In this document: positions 17,386 to 25,133 of the stretch, in pieces
How the letters are laid out: every line of letters starts with the position of its first letter
Position numbering within the stretch: the first letter of the stretch is position 1
Assembly (NCBI RefSeq): GCF_000195975.1
Contig: NC_005070.1
Location: forward strand, 210,001-242,000
Direction: 5' to 3'
Origin: Parasynechococcus marenigrum WH 8102
GTDB lineage: Bacteria; Cyanobacteriota; Cyanobacteriia; PCC-6307; Cyanobiaceae
DNA length: 32,000 nucleotides
Program-made: the position numbers and the translations under genes
Notes under the pieces: generated by a model
Seen by the model: only the letters and a program-made list of their open reading frames with translations
Database searches by the model: none
What the model was told of the DNA's origin: nothing

Positions 17386-17492
17386 GGCTTTCAGTCAAAT
17401 CTGGTCACACCCTCTCTGCTCTTTGACATCGCCTGGTTGCCTTCAGCGGCGGCTGCGGCGCTACAGCAGGTGAAGAGACCGCGGCGACAGGA

Positions 17493-18191
17493 ATGGTGGT
17501 GAAGGGCGAAAGGATTGCGGCGTGGACATTGCTTGTCTTGTCAGCCTGCATCCTTATCCCTTCGCCTCGACCCCTGCGTGCGGACGTCCTGCCCTGTTCC
17601 GGAACCAGGCTGAAACTTTCGGTGCAGGAGCGGGGCCGCAGTGCAGTGGAGTGTTTCCGCTTTTCCCTGGCCGTTTCGGGTGAGGGAGCTGATGAGGCAA
17701 CAGCACTGCAGCAGCTCAACCGCCGTCTGGCCAGCGTGCGCCGGGAGTTGAAGCCGCTGGTGCAGGGTCAGCTGGTTGTGCCAGCGCCCCACACCCACAA
17801 ACGGGGACGAGCGTCAGAACAGCGCTACGTGGCTAACACAGGCGTGTCCGGACACGTCAGCCTGGGCTCGTACGACCGTTTGATTCAAGCGGTGGGTGCC
17901 ATGCCAGGGGTGCGACTGCAGGGCATGGAATCCGTGGCGGCGCCAGAGAAGGAGGCTGCCCTAAGGCAGCGCTTGATGACGGACGCGTTGAATCAAGGTC
18001 AGGCTGATGCTGCAACGACGGCCCGGGCCATCGGCCGGTCAGAGGTCACTTTGCTGAGCATCGATCGTGCGGGGGCTATGGGCAGGCCGAGACCGCTGCG
18101 GATGGAGGCGGTCGCCAAGGGGTTTGATCCCATGGAAGCCCCCGAACCAACCATCACCCTCCGCCTGCAACTGGAGTACTGCCTCAGTTGA
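17493..18191 (+). CDS. Secreted SIMPL/DUF541-like protein (tentative)
   Basis: Signal peptide (WTLLVLSACILIPSP). The Ala-rich pattern with ...ALNQGQADAATTARAIG...LLSID... resembles the SIMPL family. The family call is from recollection only. Confidence 0.5.
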   Translation: MVVKGERIAAWTLLVLSACILIPSPRPLRADVLPCSGTRLKLSVQERGRSAVECFRFSLAVSGEGADEATALQQLNRRLASVRRELKPLVQGQLVVPAPHTHKRGRASEQRYVANTGVSGHVSLGSYDRLIQAVGAMPGVRLQGMESVAAPEKEAALRQRLMTDALNQGQADAATTARAIGRSEVTLLSIDRAGAMGRPRPLRMEAVAKGFDPMEAPEPTITLRLQLEYCLS

Positions 18192-19731
18192 GTCCTTCCC
18201 GCTGCGCCTCCTTCCAGGCCAGTCGGGGCGCACTCCAAAGGGTGGCCAACACCAGAGGGGTCACAGGTACGGCGGTGATCACGATGAAGGCCTGCAGCGC
18301 ATCAATGGAGGTGCTGTCCCCCAGGCCGCTGCCGATGCGGAGCAGCACAAGGGTGAGGCTGCCGATCATCAGCGCCCAGAACAGGCGCAGCGGGGCAGGC
18401 GGTTCGTTGCGGCCACTCACCACCATGGCGGCGGCGTAGCTCATCGAGTCGGCACTGGTACACATGAACAGCACCACCAGCACCAGTCCGATCGGGATCA
18501 GCAAACCGGCCAGGGGGAGTTGGCTGAGGATCGCGAGTAGGGCTGCCGCTGCACCGTTCCGGGCCAGGGCCTCACTGATTCCCGCACCCGCCAGTTCCAG
18601 TTGCAAGCCGGTGCCCCCGAGCAGGGTGAACCAGATGTTGGTCACGATCGGGCAGAGAATCGCAACGGCAAGCACCAGCTCGCGGATGCTGCGGCCGCGG
18701 CTGACGCCAGCGGTGAACAGTCCCATCAGCGGTGCATACCCAAGGAACCAGCCCCAGTAGAAGACCGTCCATCCATTGATCCAGTTGCCCGGTGCCACGT
18801 TGGGCGTCAGGGCCATCCGAGGCAGGTGGATCAGATACGTCAGAAAGCCGCTGAAGAAGTGCTGGATCAGCCACAGGCCAGGCCCGAGCAGCAGCAGCCC
18901 GGCCGCCATGGTGAGCGTCAGCCAGACGTTGAGTTCAGACAGCCACTTGATCCCTTTCTGAATGCCGCTGACGGTGGAGCTGGCGAAGACAGCGGTGAGC
19001 AGCACCACCACCAGCGATTGCAGCCCGGCGCTGTCGCTGAGCCAGGGCAGTTGGCCGGCGGCGTTGCTGAGTTGCAGCGAGAGAAACCCCAGGGGGCCAA
19101 CCGTGCCGGCAATCGCGGCGACCACCGACAGCCCATCGGCCAGGTGACCGATCGGTCCATCCACCCAGCCCCGTGGCACCACATTCACCAGCAGGGTGCG
19201 TGGCCTGAGAGGCTCGCCCCGCCGTTCCAGGATCGAAAAGGTGATGGTGGTGGTGGTGGCCACCAGGGCCCAGGCGAGAAATCCCCAGTGCAGAAAGCTC
19301 ACCGCCAGGGCCGGATCCACGGCTTCTGCGGTGCCGCCCTGGATGCCGTCAAAAACGGGTGAGGGAGTCTGGAAGTGATACAGCGGTTCAGCGGCAGACC
19401 AGAACACGCCCCCACCGGCCAGCAGGGTGCAGATCAGCACCGCGCACCAATCGAACAGTTTCAGGCTCGGTTTGGCCTCGGCACCACCCAGCCGGAGTTT
19501 GCCGACGGGACTGATGGCAATGACCACAGCGATCAGAAACACCAGCAACACCATCCATTGCCACAGCCCACCGAGGGCCGTGCTCACTACGGCTTTGCCG
19601 TTGTCGGTGAACTGCTTGGCCAGAGCGAGATCGATGGCTGACACCACCAAAAAGATCAGCAGCGGTGTGGCGCCGACCCAAAGGGGTGGCTGTCGCCACC
19701 AGGACCGTTGGCTGGAGGATTGGATGGTCAT
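18184..19731 (-). CDS. BCCT-family (betaine/carnitine/choline-type) secondary transporter
   Basis: About 12 TM segments and the family signature WTVFYWGWFLGYAPLMGLFTAGVSRGRSIRE. ATG 19729-19731 lies 3 nt after the upstream stop. Confidence 0.88.
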   Translation of the reverse strand: MTIQSSSQRSWWRQPPLWVGATPLLIFLVVSAIDLALAKQFTDNGKAVVSTALGGLWQWMVLLVFLIAVVIAISPVGKLRLGGAEAKPSLKLFDWCAVLICTLLAGGGVFWSAAEPLYHFQTPSPVFDGIQGGTAEAVDPALAVSFLHWGFLAWALVATTTTITFSILERRGEPLRPRTLLVNVVPRGWVDGPIGHLADGLSVVAAIAGTVGPLGFLSLQLSNAAGQLPWLSDSAGLQSLVVVLLTAVFASSTVSGIQKGIKWLSELNVWLTLTMAAGLLLLGPGLWLIQHFFSGFLTYLIHLPRMALTPNVAPGNWINGWTVFYWGWFLGYAPLMGLFTAGVSRGRSIRELVLAVAILCPIVTNIWFTLLGGTGLQLELAGAGISEALARNGAAAALLAILSQLPLAGLLIPIGLVLVVLFMCTSADSMSYAAAMVVSGRNEPPAPLRLFWALMIGSLTLVLLRIGSGLGDSTSIDALQAFIVITAVPVTPLVLATLWSAPRLAWKEAQREGLN

Positions 19732-19734
19732 GCT

Positions 19735-20925
19735 TCAGGCTCGGACGGCATCGCGCTGGTGGCTCCAGCAGTTGAGGTCAACGGCGGGCTGCTCGCCGCA
19801 GGCCAGCCGTGCCAGGGAATCTCCGATCAGTGGCGCGAACTTGAAGGCCTGACCGGAGCCGCCGGCGAACAGGCTGAGGGTGGGGCTGAGCCGATCCAGC
19901 ACGAAGTTCACATCGCTGGCCATGGAGTAGGGGCTCATCACCGTCTCCACCCGCTCTTGCACACCGGCCACCTCGTTGAACAGGAAGGAATCCAGCAGTT
20001 CCACGAGCCTTTCCGGCGGCTCAGTGGCCATGGCATTGGGCTCAGCGACTCTGAGCTCTTTTGGTGCCCAGTCGATGCCGGCTTTGATCCGTGGCAGTCC
20101 ATCGGGGGTGTGGCTCAGCACCGGGAAGGCGTAGTACAAGCCACCGTCGTCGCCCCGTTCGCGCTGGAAGCAGAACCACTGGGGATAGCGATCGGCGAGG
20201 GCCGGGTCGACGGTGTAGTGGGCCCAGAGCATCGGCCAGACCTCCAGTTTTGGCGCAAGGCCAAGGGGCGCCAGCAGCAGCTGAGTCCAGATGCCGCTGG
20301 TCACCACTACCTGGCCAGCACGGATGTGATGGCCGTTGTCCAGGGTCACGCCGGTTCCGTCGGCATCGATGCCTGCTACGGGGCAGTGCTCGATCAACTG
20401 CTGACCGGCTTGCCGGGCTGTGCGGGTCCAGTGGGCGATCACCTTGTCGCTGCGCACGGCACCGGCGGTCGGTTCGAACAATCCCGTGAACTCCGGCTTG
20501 GGCTTCAGCGGGAAGCGCGCTCTGATGGCATCGGCATCAAGGGCTTCGTAGGGAATGCCCTGATCGTCCATCACCTGGCGGGCGCCGGGGATTGAGCCTT
20601 CGATGGTCTCCTCGTCCCAGCTCTCGCCGTAAAACAGCAGGCCATGGGTTTCCCTGAGCTGCTCACCGGCGTGGGTTTCCTCCTCCCGCCACAGACGGTT
20701 GGCCTCCTGGGCCAGGCGACAGAGCACCGGGTCGGAATACATCTCCCGGAACATCCTGGTTTCGCCAAAGCTGCTGGCTTTGGCGTGGGCCAGGGTCTTG
20801 GCTTCCAGCAGCACCACATCACGGATGCCGCGGCGCGCCAGGGAAGCGGCGCAGCTGAGGCCAGCCATGCCGCCACCGACGATGACGACGGCCGCTTGGT
20901 TCGGCAGAGAGGAGGCTTGGTTCAT
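19735..20925 (-). CDS. FAD-dependent amine oxidase of the monomeric sarcosine oxidase (MSOX/MTOX/PIPOX/NikD) family
   Basis: Dinucleotide fold VVIVGGGMAGLSCAASLARRG; SFGETRMFREMY (compare MSOX HGDTRIIRHAY); GLFEPTAGAV; VVTSGIW; GGSGQAFKFAPLIGDSLARLA (compare GFSGHGFKF). ATG 20923-20925 overlaps the upstream stop (ATGA). Confidence 0.85.
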   Translation of the reverse strand: MNQASSLPNQAAVVIVGGGMAGLSCAASLARRGIRDVVLLEAKTLAHAKASSFGETRMFREMYSDPVLCRLAQEANRLWREEETHAGEQLRETHGLLFYGESWDEETIEGSIPGARQVMDDQGIPYEALDADAIRARFPLKPKPEFTGLFEPTAGAVRSDKVIAHWTRTARQAGQQLIEHCPVAGIDADGTGVTLDNGHHIRAGQVVVTSGIWTQLLLAPLGLAPKLEVWPMLWAHYTVDPALADRYPQWFCFQRERGDDGGLYYAFPVLSHTPDGLPRIKAGIDWAPKELRVAEPNAMATEPPERLVELLDSFLFNEVAGVQERVETVMSPYSMASDVNFVLDRLSPTLSLFAGGSGQAFKFAPLIGDSLARLACGEQPAVDLNCWSHQRDAVRA

Positions 20926-21978
20926 GCGGCGTCCCCGAAGCTGAGGCCGATGGGATCGGTGGCTGGGGCGGCTGCCACTTCGTTCAAAGCGGCTCCAACC
21001 GACAGGCCCTGATCGCGCTGGTTGAGGTAATCCGTGGCTCTGCGGCGCACTTCCTCACGCACGAAGGCGTAAACGTCCTTGGCGCCGGCATCCTTCCAGG
21101 CATCCGGCGAAAAGCGCTCGATTGAATCGGCGATCACAGCACCGGCGTTCACCAGGGGGTCCGGCAGGACGCTAATGCCGCGTTGACGCAATGCATCGGC
21201 CAGTTGAGGACTCTGGAACGGAGCATTGGCTGCCGGCACCACGGAGGTGACACGCAAGGCGGAGGCCATCTCCGCATTGATCAGACCGGAGATGGAACAG
21301 GGCAGCAGCAGGTCAAGCTTCAGTTCCCACCAAGGGCATCCCTGGGGAAGGGGCGTGGCCACCGGGGAATCCAGCCCGCTCACGGCTGAGATCCACGGTG
21401 AACACGGTCCAGCCATGCTCCACCAAGGTTCGGGCCACGGTTCCCCCCACCGCGCCGCAGCCGTGCACCAGGGCCCGGCCAGGTTTTGCATCCTTGAGTT
21501 CTGCTTCGAGCACCGCTTCCACGGCGCCGAGGGTGCCGTGGGCCGTGGCGGCGCTGGCATCCACCGGACTGCCGACGGCAGCGAGCACATGGGGTGTCAG
21601 CTCTGTGAGCCGCTCCATGTCCTCGAGGCTGGTGTTGAGATCACAGCCGGTGATCATGGCGCCGTCCAGGGACTGCAGCAGTTCTGCGGTCACGTTGATC
21701 AGCTCATCCTTCACGGCAGCGGGTTCCTTGGCCCGCGCCACGATCTTGCCGCCGGCAAAACCGGTGCCGTAAAGATCATGCTTGTGGGTCATCAGGCCGG
21801 CCAGTCGCTCGCCGTCGGCGATACAGGCTTCATCGCTGGGGTAGTTCAGCAGGCGCAATCCACCGTTGGCGGGTCGCTTGGCATCCGTGTCCTCGGCCAC
21901 TACAAACACCGAGAGATGTTCGGAGACGTGTTCCGCCAGCACCGAAACAGTCGGTGTGGGTCTGGTTGTGGTGGTCAT
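20922..21978 (-). pseudogene. Glu/Leu/Phe/Val-type amino-acid dehydrogenase, reading frame broken by a 1-nt shift near 21351-21370
   Basis: The N-terminal two-thirds lie in ORF 21313-22029 (GGLRLLNY...LMTHKHDLYGTGFAGGKIV...HGCGAVGGTVARTLVEHGWTVFTVDLSRERAGFPG). The remainder lies in ORF 20922-21590, in another frame (ATPLPQGCPWWELKLDLLLPCSISGLIN...VVPAANAPF...LPDPLVNAGAVI). The break falls inside the Rossmann domain rather than at a domain boundary. ATG 21976-21978 overlaps the methyltransferase stop (TGATG). Confidence 0.8.
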
Positions 21979-23015
21979 CAGGCCACCTTCTCCATCATCT
22001 GGTGGTGCTCGACGTAATCGAGACTCCACTCACTCGGAGCGTCCGCGATGCGCTGCTCCAGACGTGCGTAAACCTGATCGGCCAATGCATCACCAGCAAC
22101 ACTGGCAAAGCTGTGGCGGCTCCAGCTGCGAATGGTGGCCATTAACCCAGCGGCAAAGCTGGCGGTGTCACCGTCCTCGTTCCAGCGTCGGCGGTATGGA
22201 CATTTTACGTACACGGTGCGCTCGTCGACGAGTCGCAGGCCATTGCGGTACGGGGCTGAGGCCGTGTCCTTCAACGGCGCCATGAATTCCTCTGGCGACT
22301 TGTAGAAGTTCAGGACTGTCCCTTTGCGGTACTGCTCCTCGCTGATCAGACCTTCATCGGCCATGCCGCGCCAGATCTGGTGCAACTGGTCGTGGACATT
22401 CCGGGTCTCACCACCGTTGTGGCCGAGGTAACGACCTTCGCCATCCCGGGACAGGTTCACCGTCAGCAGGCGTCCACCCACCTGCAGCTCCTTGCTGCGC
22501 AATTCCAGGATGTAGGTCCAGTCCTTGAGCGCCTGAGCGGTGAAACGCTGCAGGGCATCAGCATCGGCGGAAGCGAGCACGTGGGTGTGGGTGTCCAGAG
22601 GACCCGGCGACTCACTGAGCCAGTGCATGGCCGTGGCGGAGAAGCCGAAACTCACCGTGTTAGGAGCCACCGATGGCTCGTAGAAGCTGCGGGCGCTCAC
22701 CAGCACCGTCGGTTTGGGTTCCCTGGGGATCTGCAGAGCCAGGTTCTCGGCCAGAGCCACGTTGTCGTTGCTCGGCAGGTCATTGCCGATCAGCGTCAGG
22801 TGAGCATCGGGCTGGTTGGCGTGCAGGCGGTCCAGCACCTGATGCCAGAGACCGACTGCGGTGCCGCCATCGGCGGCTCCGTAATCGATCAGCACATGAC
22901 TGGTTTGAGCAGTCAGTTGGTCAACACAAGTCAAGGCCCAGTCCGAGGCGGCTTCGATGCAGAGGAGAGCGCCTTCGGTCTGCGCGCTGTAACCCGTGGT
23001 CATGGCGATGGCCAT
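21978..23015 (-). CDS. SABATH-type (Methyltransf_7-like) SAM-dependent small-molecule methyltransferase
   Basis: The blocks are colinear with plant SABATH enzymes. LIDYGAADGGTAV compares with IADLGCSSGPNT. LTLIGNDLPSNDNVAL compares with NDLPxNDFN. SARSFYEPSVAPNTVSFGFSATAMHWLSESP compares with GSFYxRLFPxxSxHxxxSSxSLHWLSQVP. ELRSKELQVGGRLL compares with RxxELxxGGxMVL. MADEGLISEEQYRKGTVLNFYKSPEEF compares with EGxIxEEKxDSFNxPxYxPSxEE. Confidence 0.75.
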   Translation of the reverse strand: MAIAMTTGYSAQTEGALLCIEAASDWALTCVDQLTAQTSHVLIDYGAADGGTAVGLWHQVLDRLHANQPDAHLTLIGNDLPSNDNVALAENLALQIPREPKPTVLVSARSFYEPSVAPNTVSFGFSATAMHWLSESPGPLDTHTHVLASADADALQRFTAQALKDWTYILELRSKELQVGGRLLTVNLSRDGEGRYLGHNGGETRNVHDQLHQIWRGMADEGLISEEQYRKGTVLNFYKSPEEFMAPLKDTASAPYRNGLRLVDERTVYVKCPYRRRWNEDGDTASFAAGLMATIRSWSRHSFASVAGDALADQVYARLEQRIADAPSEWSLDYVEHHQMMEKVA

Positions 23016-23085
23016 CGACCTCGTCAGCGGCAGCCGTCACCGTACAGGACGCGTTTGTACGAGCTTCGTGACAGAGAGCACCTGC

Positions 23086-23673
23086 CTATCGAGGCTCGGC
23101 GGAGAGCAAGTCCTGCAACTGCGGTTCCAGTAAGGCAAAGGCCTTGCCACGGTGGCCATGGGATTTTTTCTCCGTCAGCGGCATCTGAGCGAAGGTGAGG
23201 CCGGTGCAGCTCACTTCAAAAATCGGGTCGTAGCCAAAGCCGCCGTCGCCGCGGGGGGTTGTGGTGATCCAGCCATCACAACGCCCTTCCACTTCGATCA
23301 ACACGCTGCCATCGGGGGCGGCAACACAAAGCGCGGCACAGAACTGAGCATGACGTTCGCTGGCGTTGCTCAGCGCCCCGAGCAGCTTTTCGATCCGTTC
23401 TGGGTCTGTGGGGGCGTAACGCGCCGAGTGCACGCCTGGGGCTCCCCCCAGAGCGTTCACGCTCAACCCGGAATCATCGGCCAGGGCCCAGCTGCCGGCC
23501 ATGGCGGCCACAGCCGTGGCCTTGATCCGGGCATTGGCTGCGAATGTGCTGCCGGTCTCCTCTACATCAAACCCCTGCGGCTGCGCCTGAACGTTGAGAG
23601 GCAGGTGCTGCAGCAGGCCCTGAAATTCACGGATCTTGCCGGCGTTCCCGCTGGCGATCACCAGGGTTCTCAT
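23086..23673 (-). CDS. rdgB: Non-canonical purine NTP pyrophosphatase (RdgB/HAM1 family)
   Basis: MRTLVIASGNAGKIREF...ETGSTFAANARIKA...ADDSGL...GAPGVHSARY...GGFGYDPIF...KSHGHRGKA. ATG 23671-23673 overlaps the upstream stop (ATGA). Confidence 0.9.
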   Translation of the reverse strand: MRTLVIASGNAGKIREFQGLLQHLPLNVQAQPQGFDVEETGSTFAANARIKATAVAAMAGSWALADDSGLSVNALGGAPGVHSARYAPTDPERIEKLLGALSNASERHAQFCAALCVAAPDGSVLIEVEGRCDGWITTTPRGDGGFGYDPIFEVSCTGLTFAQMPLTEKKSHGHRGKAFALLEPQLQDLLSAEPR

Positions 23674-25133
23674 GCGGCTTCGGCGTAACGCTTTGCCCAG
23701 GCCAGCACAGCATCGACCCGATCGCGATCCGGGGCTTCGCAGTACAGGCGCAGCAGGGGCTCCGTGCCGGAGAAGCGCAGCATCAGCCAATGGCTGGCGC
23801 CCATGCGCAGCTTGATGCCGTCTGTGGTGTTCACCTCAACCACCGCGTCCCCAGCCACCTGCTGGGGTGTGGAGCTCGCCAGCAGGGTCTCCAGACGCCG
23901 TCGGGCCTCCATGTCCTGCAGCCGCAGGTCCAGCCGGTCGTAATGGCTGGCACCACCATGGCGTTGCTGCAGAGCGTCAAGTCGGCTGCCGAGGGGTTGA
24001 CCGCCTTCCACCAGCGCTTCCAGCACGAGCATCGCGGCGAACAGGGCATCCCGTTCCGGCAGATGCATGCCGAAGCCCACCCCCCCTGACTCCTCCCCGC
24101 CGATCAGCACCTCACCCGCCAGCATCTCGCTGGCGATGTATTTGAACCCGACGGCCAGTTCCAGGACCTCACGGCCCTGGGCTTCTGCCACCAGGCGCAT
24201 CAGATCGGAACCGCTCACAGTCTTCACCACCGTTCCAGGCAGCTGGCGGGCCCGGGCGAGATGGTCGATGAGCAGGGGCATCAGCAGCTGAGTGCTGCAG
24301 AACCGACCGTTCTCATCCACGGCGGCGATGCGATCACCATCCCCATCGAACACCAGACCCACCGCTGGAGTACCCGCTGCCGTGGAGTGCTGAACCGCTG
24401 TGATCAGGTCGCTGAGGTATGGGGCCAGGGGTTCCGGCGGATTGCCGCCGAACAGGGGGTCACGCGTGCTGCGGATCTCGTCCACCAGCTCAGAGGCTTC
24501 AGGGCCGAGCAGATCGCTGACACAGCCGGCTGCCGATCCATGCATCGGGTCGACGAACACCTTCAGGTTCATCGCCTTCAGGCCCGTCACCAAAGCGGTG
24601 AGGTCCAATTTGCGACGCAATCCCTCAAGGTGCTCACCCCGCCCGTCGAAACGGCTGGTGGTCGCTGCAATGGGTGGTGTGATGCCGCCAGCCGCCAGGC
24701 GTCGCTCCACCGCTGCGGTGAAGTCCCCCTCCACCGAGCCCCCGAAGGGACCTTTGATTTTCAGGCCCAGCCATTCAGGGGGGTTATGGCTGGCGGTGAT
24801 CACCAGGGCTCCCAGCGCTTTGCGTTCCACCACCGCCCAGCTGCAGGCAGGTGTCGGCACGGGCGTCTCGGTGAGCAGTGGCTCAAGCTCGCAGCCACGC
24901 ACGGCATTGGCGATGGCTTCCGCCAGTTCCGGTGCCAGGAAGCGGCGATCGAAGCCGATGATCACCGTGCGGCTGTTCAGACCGTCTGGTGCGCGATGGG
25001 CCAGCTCCTGGGCCGCTGCAGCTGCGACTGGCAGCAACCGCTCAACGGTGATGTCCACCCCCAGGACGCCGCGCCAGCCATCGGTGCCGAACTTGATCGG
25101 CGCAGGACTGAGGCGGAGAGGTGCTGACGCCAT
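23670..25133 (-). CDS. Alpha-D-phosphohexomutase (phosphoglucomutase/phosphomannomutase family)
   Basis: FGTDGWRG; active-site loop ITASHNPPEWLGLKIK; metal loop FDGDGDRIAAVD; sugar loop GGEESGG. Confidence 0.9.
   Translation of the reverse strand: MASAPLRLSPAPIKFGTDGWRGVLGVDITVERLLPVAAAAAQELAHRAPDGLNSRTVIIGFDRRFLAPELAEAIANAVRGCELEPLLTETPVPTPACSWAVVERKALGALVITASHNPPEWLGLKIKGPFGGSVEGDFTAAVERRLAAGGITPPIAATTSRFDGRGEHLEGLRRKLDLTALVTGLKAMNLKVFVDPMHGSAAGCVSDLLGPEASELVDEIRSTRDPLFGGNPPEPLAPYLSDLITAVQHSTAAGTPAVGLVFDGDGDRIAAVDENGRFCSTQLLMPLLIDHLARARQLPGTVVKTVSGSDLMRLVAEAQGREVLELAVGFKYIASEMLAGEVLIGGEESGGVGFGMHLPERDALFAAMLVLEALVEGGQPLGSRLDALQQRHGGASHYDRLDLRLQDMEARRRLETLLASSTPQQVAGDAVVEVNTTDGIKLRMGASHWLMLRFSGTEPLLRLYCEAPDRDRVDAVLAWAKRYAEAA

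What the first reader, a model, noticed from the sequence alone, without database searches (positions are those of the whole stretch)
18184..23015. Coupled four-gene operon (SABATH methyltransferase, amino-acid dehydrogenase, MSOX/NikD-like flavoenzyme, BCCT transporter): candidate pathway for a homarine-like N-methyl pyridine-carboxylate osmolyte
Seen in the sequence: four minus-strand genes are joined by a TGATG overlap (21976-21980), an ATGA overlap (20922-20925) and a 3-nt gap (19732-19734), so they form one expression unit. Established knowledge: (1) NikD, an MSOX-family flavoenzyme of nikkomycin biosynthesis, aromatises piperideine-2-carboxylate (P2C) to picolinate, and the P2C comes from alpha-deamination of L-lysine by NikC. 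(2) The SABATH family methylates small carboxylate-bearing aromatics and includes N-methyltransferases such as nicotinate N-methyltransferase (trigonelline synthase) and the caffeine synthases. (3) BCCT carriers move quaternary-ammonium osmolytes. Inference: the dehydrogenase oxidatively deaminates lysine or a related amino acid to a cyclic imine, the flavoenzyme aromatises or oxidises it to picolinate, and the methyltransferase N-methylates it to homarine (N-methylpicolinate). The BCCT protein would then take up or recapture the product. From my recollection of published metabolomics, homarine is a major solute in cultured marine Synechococcus, and I know of no assigned cyanobacterial biosynthetic genes. 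I cannot verify either point here. Alternative roles include N-methylpipecolate or other betaine synthesis, or a catabolic function.
Basis: inference. Interest (0 to 1): 0.85.

Follow-up and report, generated by a model that had tools for sequence, protein, structure and literature searches.

The report
Candidate homarine biosynthesis operon in Synechococcus
Four tightly coupled genes in a marine Synechococcus (almost certainly strain WH8102, the strongest known homarine producer) most likely turn lysine into the abundant ocean metabolite homarine and transport it, which would name the so far unknown genes for making this compound.

Summary
Four minus-strand genes are joined by TGATG, ATGA and a 3-nt gap: a SABATH-type methyltransferase, an ELFV-type dehydrogenase, a NikD-like flavoenzyme and a BCCT carrier.

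The dehydrogenase is split by one extra G at 21359. Four near-identical independent sequences and every orthologue examined lack this G, so it is a sequencing error or a private lesion.

The window matches the predicted WH8102 operon SYNW0229-0233.

- The order MT-DH-oxidase-BCCT recurs in about 50 Synechococcus species and in two distant bacterial lineages (39-43% identity). A filamentous cyanobacterium has an OpuAC betaine-binding protein beside the three enzymes.
- The three enzymes occur fused into one polypeptide in green, red and xanthophyte algae and in a Shewanella.
- The oxidase carries NikD's Glu101 loop and Asp276, where sarcosine and N-methyltryptophan oxidases have His.
- The dehydrogenase has an invariant Asn and Asp at the two positions that set side-chain specificity, which fits a basic substrate such as lysine.
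- WH8102 and WH7803 both make homarine, and two of the WH8102 proteins are detected by proteomics.
- The searched literature, to mid-2026, reports no homarine biosynthetic genes.

The product itself remains inferred; nothing has been tested biochemically.

The parts
21978..23015 (-). SABATH-type SAM-dependent methyltransferase (345 aa). Proposed picolinate N-methyltransferase, i.e. the homarine-forming step. Probably SYNW0233.
   Evidence: Pfam PF03492: 77.9 bits, cut-off 29.8. The best solved relative is the mycobacterial fatty acid O-methyltransferase 5f2k, E 1.5e-17; SAMT 1m6e follows at E 3e-8. Family-wide invariant residues include D44/G46/A48/D49/G51 and the SATAMHWLS motif with His131-Trp132. 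The exact protein is also encoded in LN847356.1 and in many metagenome contigs. SYNW0233 is detected in the WH8102 proteome.
20922..21978 (-). ELFV-family amino-acid dehydrogenase (351 aa once the extra G is removed). Proposed L-lysine alpha-dehydrogenase giving 2-oxo-6-aminocaproate, which cyclises to piperideine-2-carboxylate (P2C). Probably annotated as two genes, SYNW0231 and SYNW0232.
   Evidence: ELFV_dehydrog_N and ELFV_dehydrog are found on the two halves. The best solved relatives are leucine dehydrogenases 7vid and 6acf and tryptophan dehydrogenase 5b37. The carboxylate-binding Lys66, catalytic Lys78 and Asp113 are kept. The side-chain pocket positions are an invariant Asn38, Gly111, Cys112 and Asp284 in 24-25 family members, from cyanobacteria to algae.
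21359..21359 (.). Single extra G that splits the dehydrogenase into two ORFs (21313-22029 and 20922-21590).
   Evidence: The G is absent from L066 (98% identical), L067 and L069 (0 mismatches over 12-20 kb), L068 (99.74% identical) and all other orthologues checked.
19735..20925 (-). NikD-like FAD amine oxidase (396 aa). Proposed P2C-to-picolinate aromatising oxidase. SYNW0230, 'solA, putative sarcosine oxidase'.
   Evidence: DAO E 2e-45. NikD 2oln is the top solved-structure hit at E 2.2e-35, level with sarcosine oxidase 7exs. It carries the NikD signatures Glu101 loop (ETIEGS) and Asp276 (GID), and lacks the flavinylation Cys. NikD is sister to this clade in a neighbour-joining tree. SYNW0230 is detected in the WH8102 proteome.
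18184..19731 (-). BCCT-family carrier (515 aa). Proposed homarine or betaine uptake or recapture transporter. SYNW0229, 'BetT'.
   Evidence: Pfam BCCT 426 bits. The NCBIfam glycine-betaine BCCT model scores 295 bits, below its equivalog cut-off of 650. A BCCT gene occupies the same position in distant copies of the module, L062/L063 and L076/L077. PMC2874817 lists SYNW0229 as BetT within operon SYNW0229-0233.
21976..21980 (-). TGATG stop/start overlap between MT and DH.
20922..20925 (-). ATGA start/stop overlap between DH and oxidase.
19732..19734 (-). 3-nt spacer between the oxidase stop and the BCCT start.

Best explanation
The operon encodes a three-enzyme biosynthetic pathway for homarine (N-methylpicolinate), plus a carrier for it.

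Proposed steps:
1. The ELFV dehydrogenase oxidatively deaminates the alpha-amino group of L-lysine. The resulting 2-oxo-6-aminocaproate cyclises spontaneously to piperideine-2-carboxylate (P2C).
2. The NikD-like flavoenzyme oxidises P2C by four electrons to picolinate.
3. The SABATH-type methyltransferase transfers a methyl group from SAM to the ring nitrogen, giving homarine.
4. The BCCT carrier imports or recaptures homarine or related betaines.

Shown here:
- family membership and translational coupling;
- deep conservation of the gene set, and fusion of the three enzymes into single proteins;
- NikD-type and basic-substrate-type active-site signatures;
- presence in two homarine-producing strains.

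Inferred:
- each substrate and product;
- the regiochemistry of methylation;
- the carrier's substrate.
For: **One pathway**
- The genes are translationally coupled.
- The order MT-DH-oxidase-BCCT is kept in all sufficiently long loci of 57 found in species-representative genomes.
- The same order recurs at 43% and 39% MT identity in unrelated genomic contexts.
- The trio lies beside an OpuAC betaine-binding protein in GCA_010692625.1.
- Fusion proteins exist in several domain orders:
  - ELFV+DAO+MT in Shewanella surugensis, Tribonema minus, Nephroselmis pyriformis and Pyramimonas;
  - DAO+MT in Porphyridium purpureum;
  - ELFV+MT in Pterosperma;
  - ELFV+DAO in Dunaliella, Pycnococcus and a pedinophyte.

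**Chemistry**
- The oxidase shares NikD's Glu101-bearing loop and Asp276, where MSOX-type enzymes have a deletion and a His. It also keeps Arg53, Tyr258 and Lys358, and this holds across the family.
- NikD is its top solved relative and its sister in a neighbour-joining tree.
- The dehydrogenase keeps the catalytic Lys and Asp. It places an invariant Asn38 and Asp284 where GluDH has Lys89/Ser380 and LeuDH has Leu40/Val294, and Gly111 where LeuDH has Ala113. That gives a larger pocket with an acidic floor.
- Lysine's six carbons and its epsilon-N map exactly onto picolinate (established chemistry of NikC/NikD).

**Product class**
- BCCT or OpuAC neighbours point to a quaternary-ammonium or betaine-like solute.

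**Organism**
- The window equals the predicted WH8102 operon SYNW0229-0233.
- WH8102 holds up to 18 mM homarine and WH7803, which also has the operon (L007), about 0.2 mM.
- SYNW0230 and SYNW0233 are detected as proteins.

**Literature**
- The searched literature states that genes for homarine synthesis are unknown. No paper names a homarine synthase.
Against: - There is no biochemical or genetic test of any step.
- The dehydrogenase is frameshifted in this very sequence, which is that of the high producer. If the lesion is real in the culture that was measured, P2C must come from elsewhere or the model is wrong.
- The oxidase lacks NikD's flavinylation Cys321 (Ser) and Trp355 (Gln or Arg), so it may not perform the full aromatisation.
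- The closest solved relative of the methyltransferase is an O-methyltransferase, and nothing here shows N-methylation.
- WH7803 has an intact operon but about 100-fold less homarine than WH8102.
- No diatom or haptophyte homologue appeared in the one fusion-protein search that returned organism names. That search has limited sensitivity. Older work in animals derives homarine from quinolinate or from glycine, as cited.
- Homarine content is unknown for most algae that carry the fusion.
Confidence: 0.55

Rival explanations
1. The three enzymes act in one pathway and in the same order, but the product is different. Possibilities:
- ornithine to pyrroline-2-carboxylate to pyrrole-2-carboxylate, then methylated;
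- a partly oxidised piperideine carboxylate;
- the methyl ester of picolinate, by O-methylation;
- another N-methylated heterocyclic acid.
For: The acidic pocket of the dehydrogenase does not distinguish lysine from ornithine. The oxidase differs from NikD at Cys321 and Trp355. The nearest solved methyltransferases are carboxyl O-methyltransferases.
Against: N-methylpyrrole carboxylate and methyl esters are not zwitterionic betaines. That makes the conserved BCCT and OpuAC partners hard to explain. WH8102 and WH7803 are known to accumulate homarine, and no other unexplained heterocyclic solute has been reported for them in the papers read.
Confidence: 0.27
2. The cluster is catabolic or salvage. 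A betaine or N-methyl amino acid is imported by the BCCT carrier, demethylated by a 'sarcosine oxidase' (the current solA annotation) and deaminated by the dehydrogenase.
For: The NCBIfam best hit for the oxidase is N-methyl-L-tryptophan oxidase, at 187 bits. The WH8102 annotation is 'putative sarcosine oxidase', and PMC2874817 files the operon under betaine uptake.
Against: - The 187-bit score is below the model's cut-off of 257.
- The oxidase lacks the His (MSOX His269) and the flavinylation Cys of sarcosine and N-methyltryptophan oxidases, and has NikD residues instead.
- A SAM-dependent methyltransferase has no role in demethylation, yet it is the most tightly conserved partner and is fused to the oxidase in many organisms.
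- The hosts are photoautotrophs.
Confidence: 0.06
3. The genes are functionally unrelated neighbours, or the locus is decaying, with a pseudogenised dehydrogenase.
For: There is a frameshift at 21359 in this window.
Against: - The frameshift is absent from four near-identical sequences and from all orthologues.
- Active-site residues are conserved in all members.
- The enzymes occur as fusion proteins.
- Two of the products are detected by proteomics.
Confidence: 0.02

Closest known systems
NikC/NikD route to picolinate in nikkomycin biosynthesis (Streptomyces tendae); NikD structures 2oln, 2q6u, 3hzl
   Same: The proposed logic is the same: alpha-deamination of L-lysine to P2C, then oxidation to picolinate by an MSOX-family flavoenzyme. 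The oxidase here is about 31% identical to NikD. It shares Arg53, the Glu101 loop, Tyr258, Asp276 and Lys358.
   Different: - The deaminating step is an NAD(P)-type ELFV dehydrogenase, not the aminotransferase NikC.
- The Cys for covalent FAD attachment is a Ser.
- NikD Trp355 is Gln or Arg.
- The picolinate would be N-methylated to a solute rather than built into an antibiotic.
SABATH (Methyltransf_7) methyltransferases: plant salicylate carboxyl MT (1m6e), coffee caffeine and trigonelline synthases, mycobacterial fatty acid O-MT (5f2k)
   Same: It has the Pfam PF03492 fold and SAM-binding motifs and keeps the substrate-site Trp (Trp132, in the motif HWLS). From my own knowledge, coffee trigonelline synthases show that this family can N-methylate a pyridine carboxylate.
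   Different: Identity to solved members is only about 25-30%. It forms its own clade, which is always linked or fused to the dehydrogenase and oxidase. The acceptor atom is unknown.
Leucine, phenylalanine and tryptophan dehydrogenases (ELFV family; 6acf, 7vid, 1c1d, 5b37, ScyB)
   Same: Same fold, carboxylate-binding Lys66, catalytic Lys78 and Asp113.
   Different: The specificity positions are Asn38 and Asp284, where LeuDH has Leu40 and Val294. His67, Gly111 and Cys112 are also invariant. All NCBIfam equivalog models score far below their cut-offs. I know of no lysine alpha-dehydrogenase described in this family (my own knowledge).
Glycine-betaine BCCT carriers (BetP, OpuD, BetT)
   Same: BCCT Pfam domain at 426 bits and the family motif GWTVFYWGW.
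   Different: It scores below the NCBIfam glycine-betaine equivalog cut-off (295 against 650 bits). Its substrate has not been tested.
Bacterial homarine catabolic operon homABCDER (PMC13236597)
   Same: It concerns the same metabolite and includes an operon-linked betaine-type transporter, HomT.
   Different: The direction and the enzymes are entirely different: ring-opening oxygenase, peptidase and aldehyde dehydrogenase. It is found in heterotrophs.

Membership tests
SABATH / Methyltransf_7 (PF03492) | Match to the family profile above Pfam's gathering score | tested here: met
   77.9 bits against 29.8, covering profile positions 20-319 of 335.
SABATH / Methyltransf_7 (PF03492) | Conserved substrate-site Trp (SAMT Trp151) and the SAM-binding acidic/Gly motif | tested here: met
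   Trp132 in SATAMHWLS, and D44-x-G46-x-A48-D49-G-G51, are invariant in 25 family members. The equivalence to SAMT Trp151 is taken from the FAMT alignment and from memory.
SABATH N-methyltransferases (trigonelline or caffeine synthase type) | Methyl transfer to a ring nitrogen | not testable with these tools
   This needs an enzyme assay. Sequence alone does not tell N- from O-methylation.
ELFV amino-acid dehydrogenases | Both Pfam domains, plus the catalytic Lys, the carboxylate-binding Lys and the catalytic Asp | tested here: met
   PF02812 and PF00208 are found on the two halves. Lys66, Lys78 and Asp113 align with LeuDH Lys68, Lys80 and Asp115.
Leucine / tryptophan dehydrogenase (NCBIfam equivalogs) | Score above the equivalog cut-off, and a hydrophobic specificity pocket | tested here: not met
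   The ScyB model scores 67 bits against a cut-off of 600. The pocket has Asn38 and Asp284 in place of Leu and Val.
MSOX family (monomeric sarcosine oxidase, MTOX, NikD, PIPOX) | DAO fold with the substrate-carboxylate pair Arg52 / Lys348 (MSOX numbering) | tested here: met
   DAO 156 bits. Arg60 and Lys362 align with NikD Arg53 and Lys358.
MSOX family (monomeric sarcosine oxidase, MTOX, NikD, PIPOX) | Cys for covalent 8-alpha-S-cysteinyl FAD | tested here: not met
   The Cys column of SOX 7exs and MTOX is an invariant Ser (motif SPY) in all module oxidases. NikD Cys321 has no Cys counterpart.
Sarcosine / N-methyltryptophan oxidase | Active-site His (MSOX His269), and a score above the NCBIfam cut-off | tested here: not met
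   There is an Asp at that column (GID). PRK11259 scores 187 bits against 257, and soxA_mon 145 against 480.
NikD (P2C-aromatising oxidase) | Glu101 and Asp276 near the site of oxidation, and Tyr258 | tested here: met
   Glu109, Asp and Tyr align with these residues and are invariant in the family. The Glu loop is missing in SOX and MTOX.
NikD (P2C-aromatising oxidase) | Trp355 stacking over the ligand; Cys321-linked FAD; four-electron oxidation of P2C | tested here: not met
   Trp355 is Gln359 here (Arg in non-cyanobacterial members), and Cys321 is absent. The activity itself cannot be tested with these tools.
BCCT transporters | Family profile and the TM8 aromatic motif | tested here: met
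   426 bits. The motif is GWTVFYWGWFLGY.
Glycine-betaine BCCT (NCBIfam NF047988 equivalog) | Score above the equivalog cut-off | tested here: not met
   295 bits against 650.

The most novel reading that the evidence does not exclude
This operon is the long-sought biosynthetic route to homarine: lysine, then P2C, then picolinate, then N-methylpicolinate. It is built from a new lysine alpha-dehydrogenase subfamily, a non-covalent-flavin relative of NikD, and a bacterial/algal SABATH N-methyltransferase. The same three-enzyme module, often fused into one protein, would make homarine in green, red and xanthophyte algae. That would give a gene marker for a major marine nitrogenous osmolyte and infochemical.
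Probability: 0.5. Interest if true: 0.9.

Novelty: new variant of a known kind. Interest (0 to 1): 0.85.

Why it matters
Homarine is one of the most abundant small nitrogen-containing metabolites in marine particles. It is a compatible solute and also a signal that alters animal behaviour and development. The oceanographic literature says repeatedly that no genes for its synthesis are known, so it cannot be followed in genomes, metatranscriptomes or models. Its degradation genes were found only in 2026.

A defined three-gene marker with diagnostic residues would allow several things:
- producers could be mapped across picocyanobacteria and algae;
- production could be linked to salinity, light and nitrogen status;
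- supply could be paired with the known hom catabolic operon.

It would also add a new substrate class to the ELFV dehydrogenases and a second natural role for NikD-type aromatisation.

The hypothesis can be tested directly with three cloned genes and an LC-MS assay.

Tried and rejected
- **Finding WH8102 in the genome collection.** The scan returned 57 loci but not the window's own genome. A pattern-sensitivity check showed nearly all hits match at least 2 of the 6 peptide patterns. Several named strains whose proteins contain the patterns were also missing. Absence from that list is therefore not evidence of absence. WH8102 was identified instead through the literature and an exact-protein look-up.
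- **Cluster-member listings.** These named many strains but never WH8102.
- **A BCCT aromatic-box variant as a homarine signature.** WGWF..GY (against BetP WAWW..SW, from memory) is shared by the window and L062. The module-linked BCCT of L076 has the canonical WAWWVSW, so the idea was dropped.
- **Taxonomic origin of the marine-transcript fusion P0204.** A spliced-leader-like stretch (ACCATTTAGGCTCAAG) is suggestive of a dinoflagellate but not conclusive. The DAO domain of P0204 also belongs to a different subfamily.
- **Promoter and terminator scan of 17400-23900.** Nothing above the shuffled background.
- **Literature searches for a named homarine synthase or picolinate N-methyltransferase.** None found.
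- **Scanlan 2009 review.** Not held in the library.
- **Structure prediction.** Not run. All MSOX-family and SABATH folds would match about equally, so it would not settle substrate or regiochemistry.

Full report
**Observation**

Four minus-strand ORFs occupy 18184-23015.
- MT stop and DH start share TGATG at 21976-21980.
- DH stop and oxidase start share ATGA at 20922-20925.
- Three bases (19732-19734) separate the oxidase stop from the BCCT start.

Pfam confirms Methyltransf_7 (77.9 bits, cut-off 29.8), ELFV_dehydrog_N plus ELFV_dehydrog, DAO (156 bits) and BCCT (426 bits). No NCBIfam equivalog model is reached by any of the four. The oxidase scores 187 bits against a cut-off of 257 for N-methyltryptophan oxidase. 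The dehydrogenase scores 67 against 600 for ScyB. The carrier scores 295 against 650 for the glycine-betaine BCCT.

**The frameshift**

The dehydrogenase is read as two overlapping ORFs. Alignment with orthologues pins this on one extra G at 21359 (GGTGGCC against GGTGCC). Deleting it restores a 351-aa protein colinear with all relatives.

Four independent sequences lack the G:
- two metagenome contigs with zero mismatches over 12-20 kb (L067, L069);
- chromosome LN847356.1, 99.74% identical (L068);
- a 98% identical contig (L066).

So the lesion is a sequencing error or private to the sequenced clone, not a feature of the gene.

**Source organism**

The exact MT protein is encoded in LN847356.1, a 2.43-Mb chromosome that I recall as strain WH8103.

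PMC2874817 predicts a five-gene WH8102 operon, SYNW0229-0233, headed by the BCCT 'BetT' SYNW0229. SYNW0230 is 'solA, putative sarcosine oxidase'. Five genes is what this window yields when the split dehydrogenase is counted twice.

The window is therefore WH8102 or a nearly identical clade III strain (inference). SYNW0230 and SYNW0233 (the MT, annotated 'uncharacterized') are both detected in a WH8102 proteome.

**The genes form one unit**

A scan of species-representative genomes found 57 loci. Nearly all are marine Synechococcus, including WH7803 and RCC307. One is a Prochlorococcus single-cell genome. In every locus long enough, the order MT-DH-oxidase-BCCT is kept and the dehydrogenase is in one frame. 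The Prochlorococcus copy has the three enzymes but no BCCT.

More distant methyltransferase relatives, found with the all-against-library HMMER search, sit in the same module:
- MT-DH-DAO-BCCT, with overlapping junctions, at 43% identity in GCA_050331295.1.
- The same four genes at 39% identity in another lineage.
- OpuAC-DH-MT, with the DAO gene on the opposite strand, in a low-GC genome I take to be a marine filamentous cyanobacterium.

The strongest evidence is that many relatives are fusion proteins in several domain orders:
- ELFV+DAO+MT in Shewanella surugensis, Tribonema minus, Nephroselmis pyriformis and Pyramimonas sp.;
- DAO+MT in Porphyridium purpureum;
- ELFV+MT in Pterosperma;
- ELFV+DAO in Dunaliella salina, Pycnococcus provasolii and a pedinophyte.

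Operon conservation and repeated fusion together show that the three enzymes act in one pathway. Betaine-type transport components are their recurrent partners.

**The oxidase**

NikD is the best solved relative (E 2.2e-35), level with one sarcosine oxidase and well ahead of MTOX and MSOX at about 1e-25.

Residue by residue, the protein keeps NikD Arg53, Tyr258 and Lys358. It also keeps two features that separate NikD from the N-methyl amino acid oxidases:
- the loop carrying Glu101 (ETIEGS here, TNEGQ in NikD, deleted in 7exs and MTOX);
- Asp276 (GID here, GPD in NikD, G[RK]H in the oxidases).

These are invariant in 24 module oxidases from cyanobacteria to algae. A rough neighbour-joining tree places NikD as sister to this clade.

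There are two differences. The Cys that carries covalent FAD is an invariant Ser (motif SPY). NikD Trp355 is Gln in cyanobacteria and Arg elsewhere.

**The dehydrogenase**

Its nearest solved relatives are leucine, phenylalanine and tryptophan dehydrogenases. Lys66, Lys78 and Asp113 align with the carboxylate-binding Lys, the catalytic Lys and the catalytic Asp.

In this family, side-chain choice is set at two positions: GluDH Lys89/Ser380, equivalent to LeuDH Leu40/Val294 (established structural knowledge of the family, recalled from memory). Here these are Asn38 and Asp284. LeuDH Ala113 is Gly111. All are invariant in 24-25 members, together with His67 and Cys112.

A widened pocket with an acidic floor fits a long basic side chain, that is lysine or possibly ornithine (inference).

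**The methyltransferase**

It is a genuine Methyltransf_7 member. Its best solved relative is the mycobacterial fatty acid O-methyltransferase. The module family has its own invariant set, including SATAMHWLS with His131-Trp132. Sequence cannot tell N- from O-methylation.

**Mechanism proposed**

Lysine is deaminated at the alpha position to 2-oxo-6-aminocaproate, which cyclises to P2C. The NikD-like oxidase aromatises P2C to picolinate. The methyltransferase N-methylates picolinate to homarine. The BCCT carrier takes up or recaptures it.

The carbon and nitrogen skeleton of lysine maps exactly onto picolinate, as in the NikC/NikD route (established knowledge). The recurrent betaine-transport partners argue for a zwitterionic N-methyl product rather than an ester.

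**Fit to metabolite data**

Homarine was found in both Synechococcus strains tested. After the published 25-fold correction, WH8102 holds up to 18 mM and WH7803 about 0.2 mM, against 0.02-2.2 mM in diatoms. Both strains carry the operon (L007 for WH7803).

Homarine is also reported in E. huxleyi and the dinoflagellate Amphidinium carterae. From memory, it occurs in the green flagellate Platymonas (Tetraselmis).

The authors of these studies state that genes for homarine synthesis are unknown. The 2026 Nature Microbiology paper defines only the catabolic hom operon. No paper in the library names a homarine synthase.

**Caveats**

- Nothing has been tested biochemically.
- The frameshift lies in the sequence of the highest producer.
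- The oxidase departs from NikD at two notable residues.
- The regiochemistry of methylation is unknown.
- WH7803 has an intact operon but little homarine.
- No diatom or haptophyte homologue appeared in the single, limited-sensitivity fusion-protein search that returned organism names. A second route may exist, and animal studies point to quinolinate or glycine.
- Homarine has not been measured in most algae that carry the fusion.

**Rivals**

A different heterocyclic or ester product of the same three steps is the main rival (about 0.27). A catabolic 'sarcosine oxidase' reading is contradicted by the missing His and Cys, by the sub-threshold scores and by the obligatory SAM methyltransferase (about 0.06). 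Chance adjacency or decay is excluded for practical purposes (about 0.02).

**Verdict**

The parts belong to known enzyme families. The combination is a new variant, and apparently unassigned:
- a basic-substrate ELFV subfamily;
- a Cys-less relative of NikD;
- a linked or fused SABATH methyltransferase.

It makes an open question in marine biogeochemistry directly testable.

Noticed in passing
window 19245-19247 (inside the BCCT gene): The window has one more ACC/CCA repeat unit (a run of Thr codons, protein ...VATTTTITF...) than the otherwise identical contigs L067 and L069. This gives 515 aa against 514. WH8103-like L068 has the longer form. It is a repeat-length polymorphism among near-clonal sequences.
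   Followed up: partly
window 17613 (SIMPL-domain ORF 17493-18191, plus strand): There is a one-base T difference between the window and LN847356.1 (L068). It goes with a different called length of the SIMPL protein (232 against 222 aa). The SIMPL ORF also overlaps the 3' end of the BCCT gene convergently by 8 nt (18184-18191).
   Followed up: no
L053 7998-11288 (Prochlorococcus sp. AG-321-D23, 32% GC): A single-cell Prochlorococcus genome carries the MT-DH-oxidase trio (53-55% identity, all signature residues present) but no BCCT gene. Most Prochlorococcus apparently lack the module. This predicts an unusual homarine-making Prochlorococcus lineage.
   Followed up: partly
L012 (MAG labelled Salipiger bermudensis); protein P0346 (MAG labelled Propionibacteriaceae): These carry a Synechococcus-type operon or MT at about 90% identity to the window. 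They are almost certainly Synechococcus contigs mis-binned into heterotroph MAGs.
   Followed up: no
L071 1-113 and L072 1-77 (marine metatranscriptome contigs encoding P0204): A 1273-aa MT+ELFV+DAO fusion whose DAO domain belongs to a different subfamily and lacks the NikD-type residues. Its 5' UTR contains ACCATTTAGGCTCAAG, which resembles the 3' part of the dinoflagellate spliced leader. It may be a variant pathway in an alveolate.
   Followed up: partly
L058 1-3222 (GCA_010692625.1): In the low-GC genome I take to be a filamentous cyanobacterium, the OpuAC-DH-MT/DAO module lies next to a large NRPS gene and a second flavin monooxygenase-like gene (Lys_Orn_oxgnase, weak hit). Picolinate might also feed a peptide natural product there.
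   Followed up: no
window 23086-25133: A phosphoglucomutase/phosphomannomutase gene and a Ham1/RdgB-like pyrophosphatase gene lie upstream on the same strand. By the gene calls on L067 they overlap each other by 4 nt. They end 70 nt before the MT start, so read-through transcription into the operon is possible.
   Followed up: no
Genome-contig scan: The window's own genome, and several named strains whose MT contains the search patterns (WH8101, RS9909, MVIR-18-1, ROS8604, UW179A, MIT S9509), were not returned. The species-representative collection therefore cannot be used to infer absence of the operon in a given strain.
   Followed up: yes
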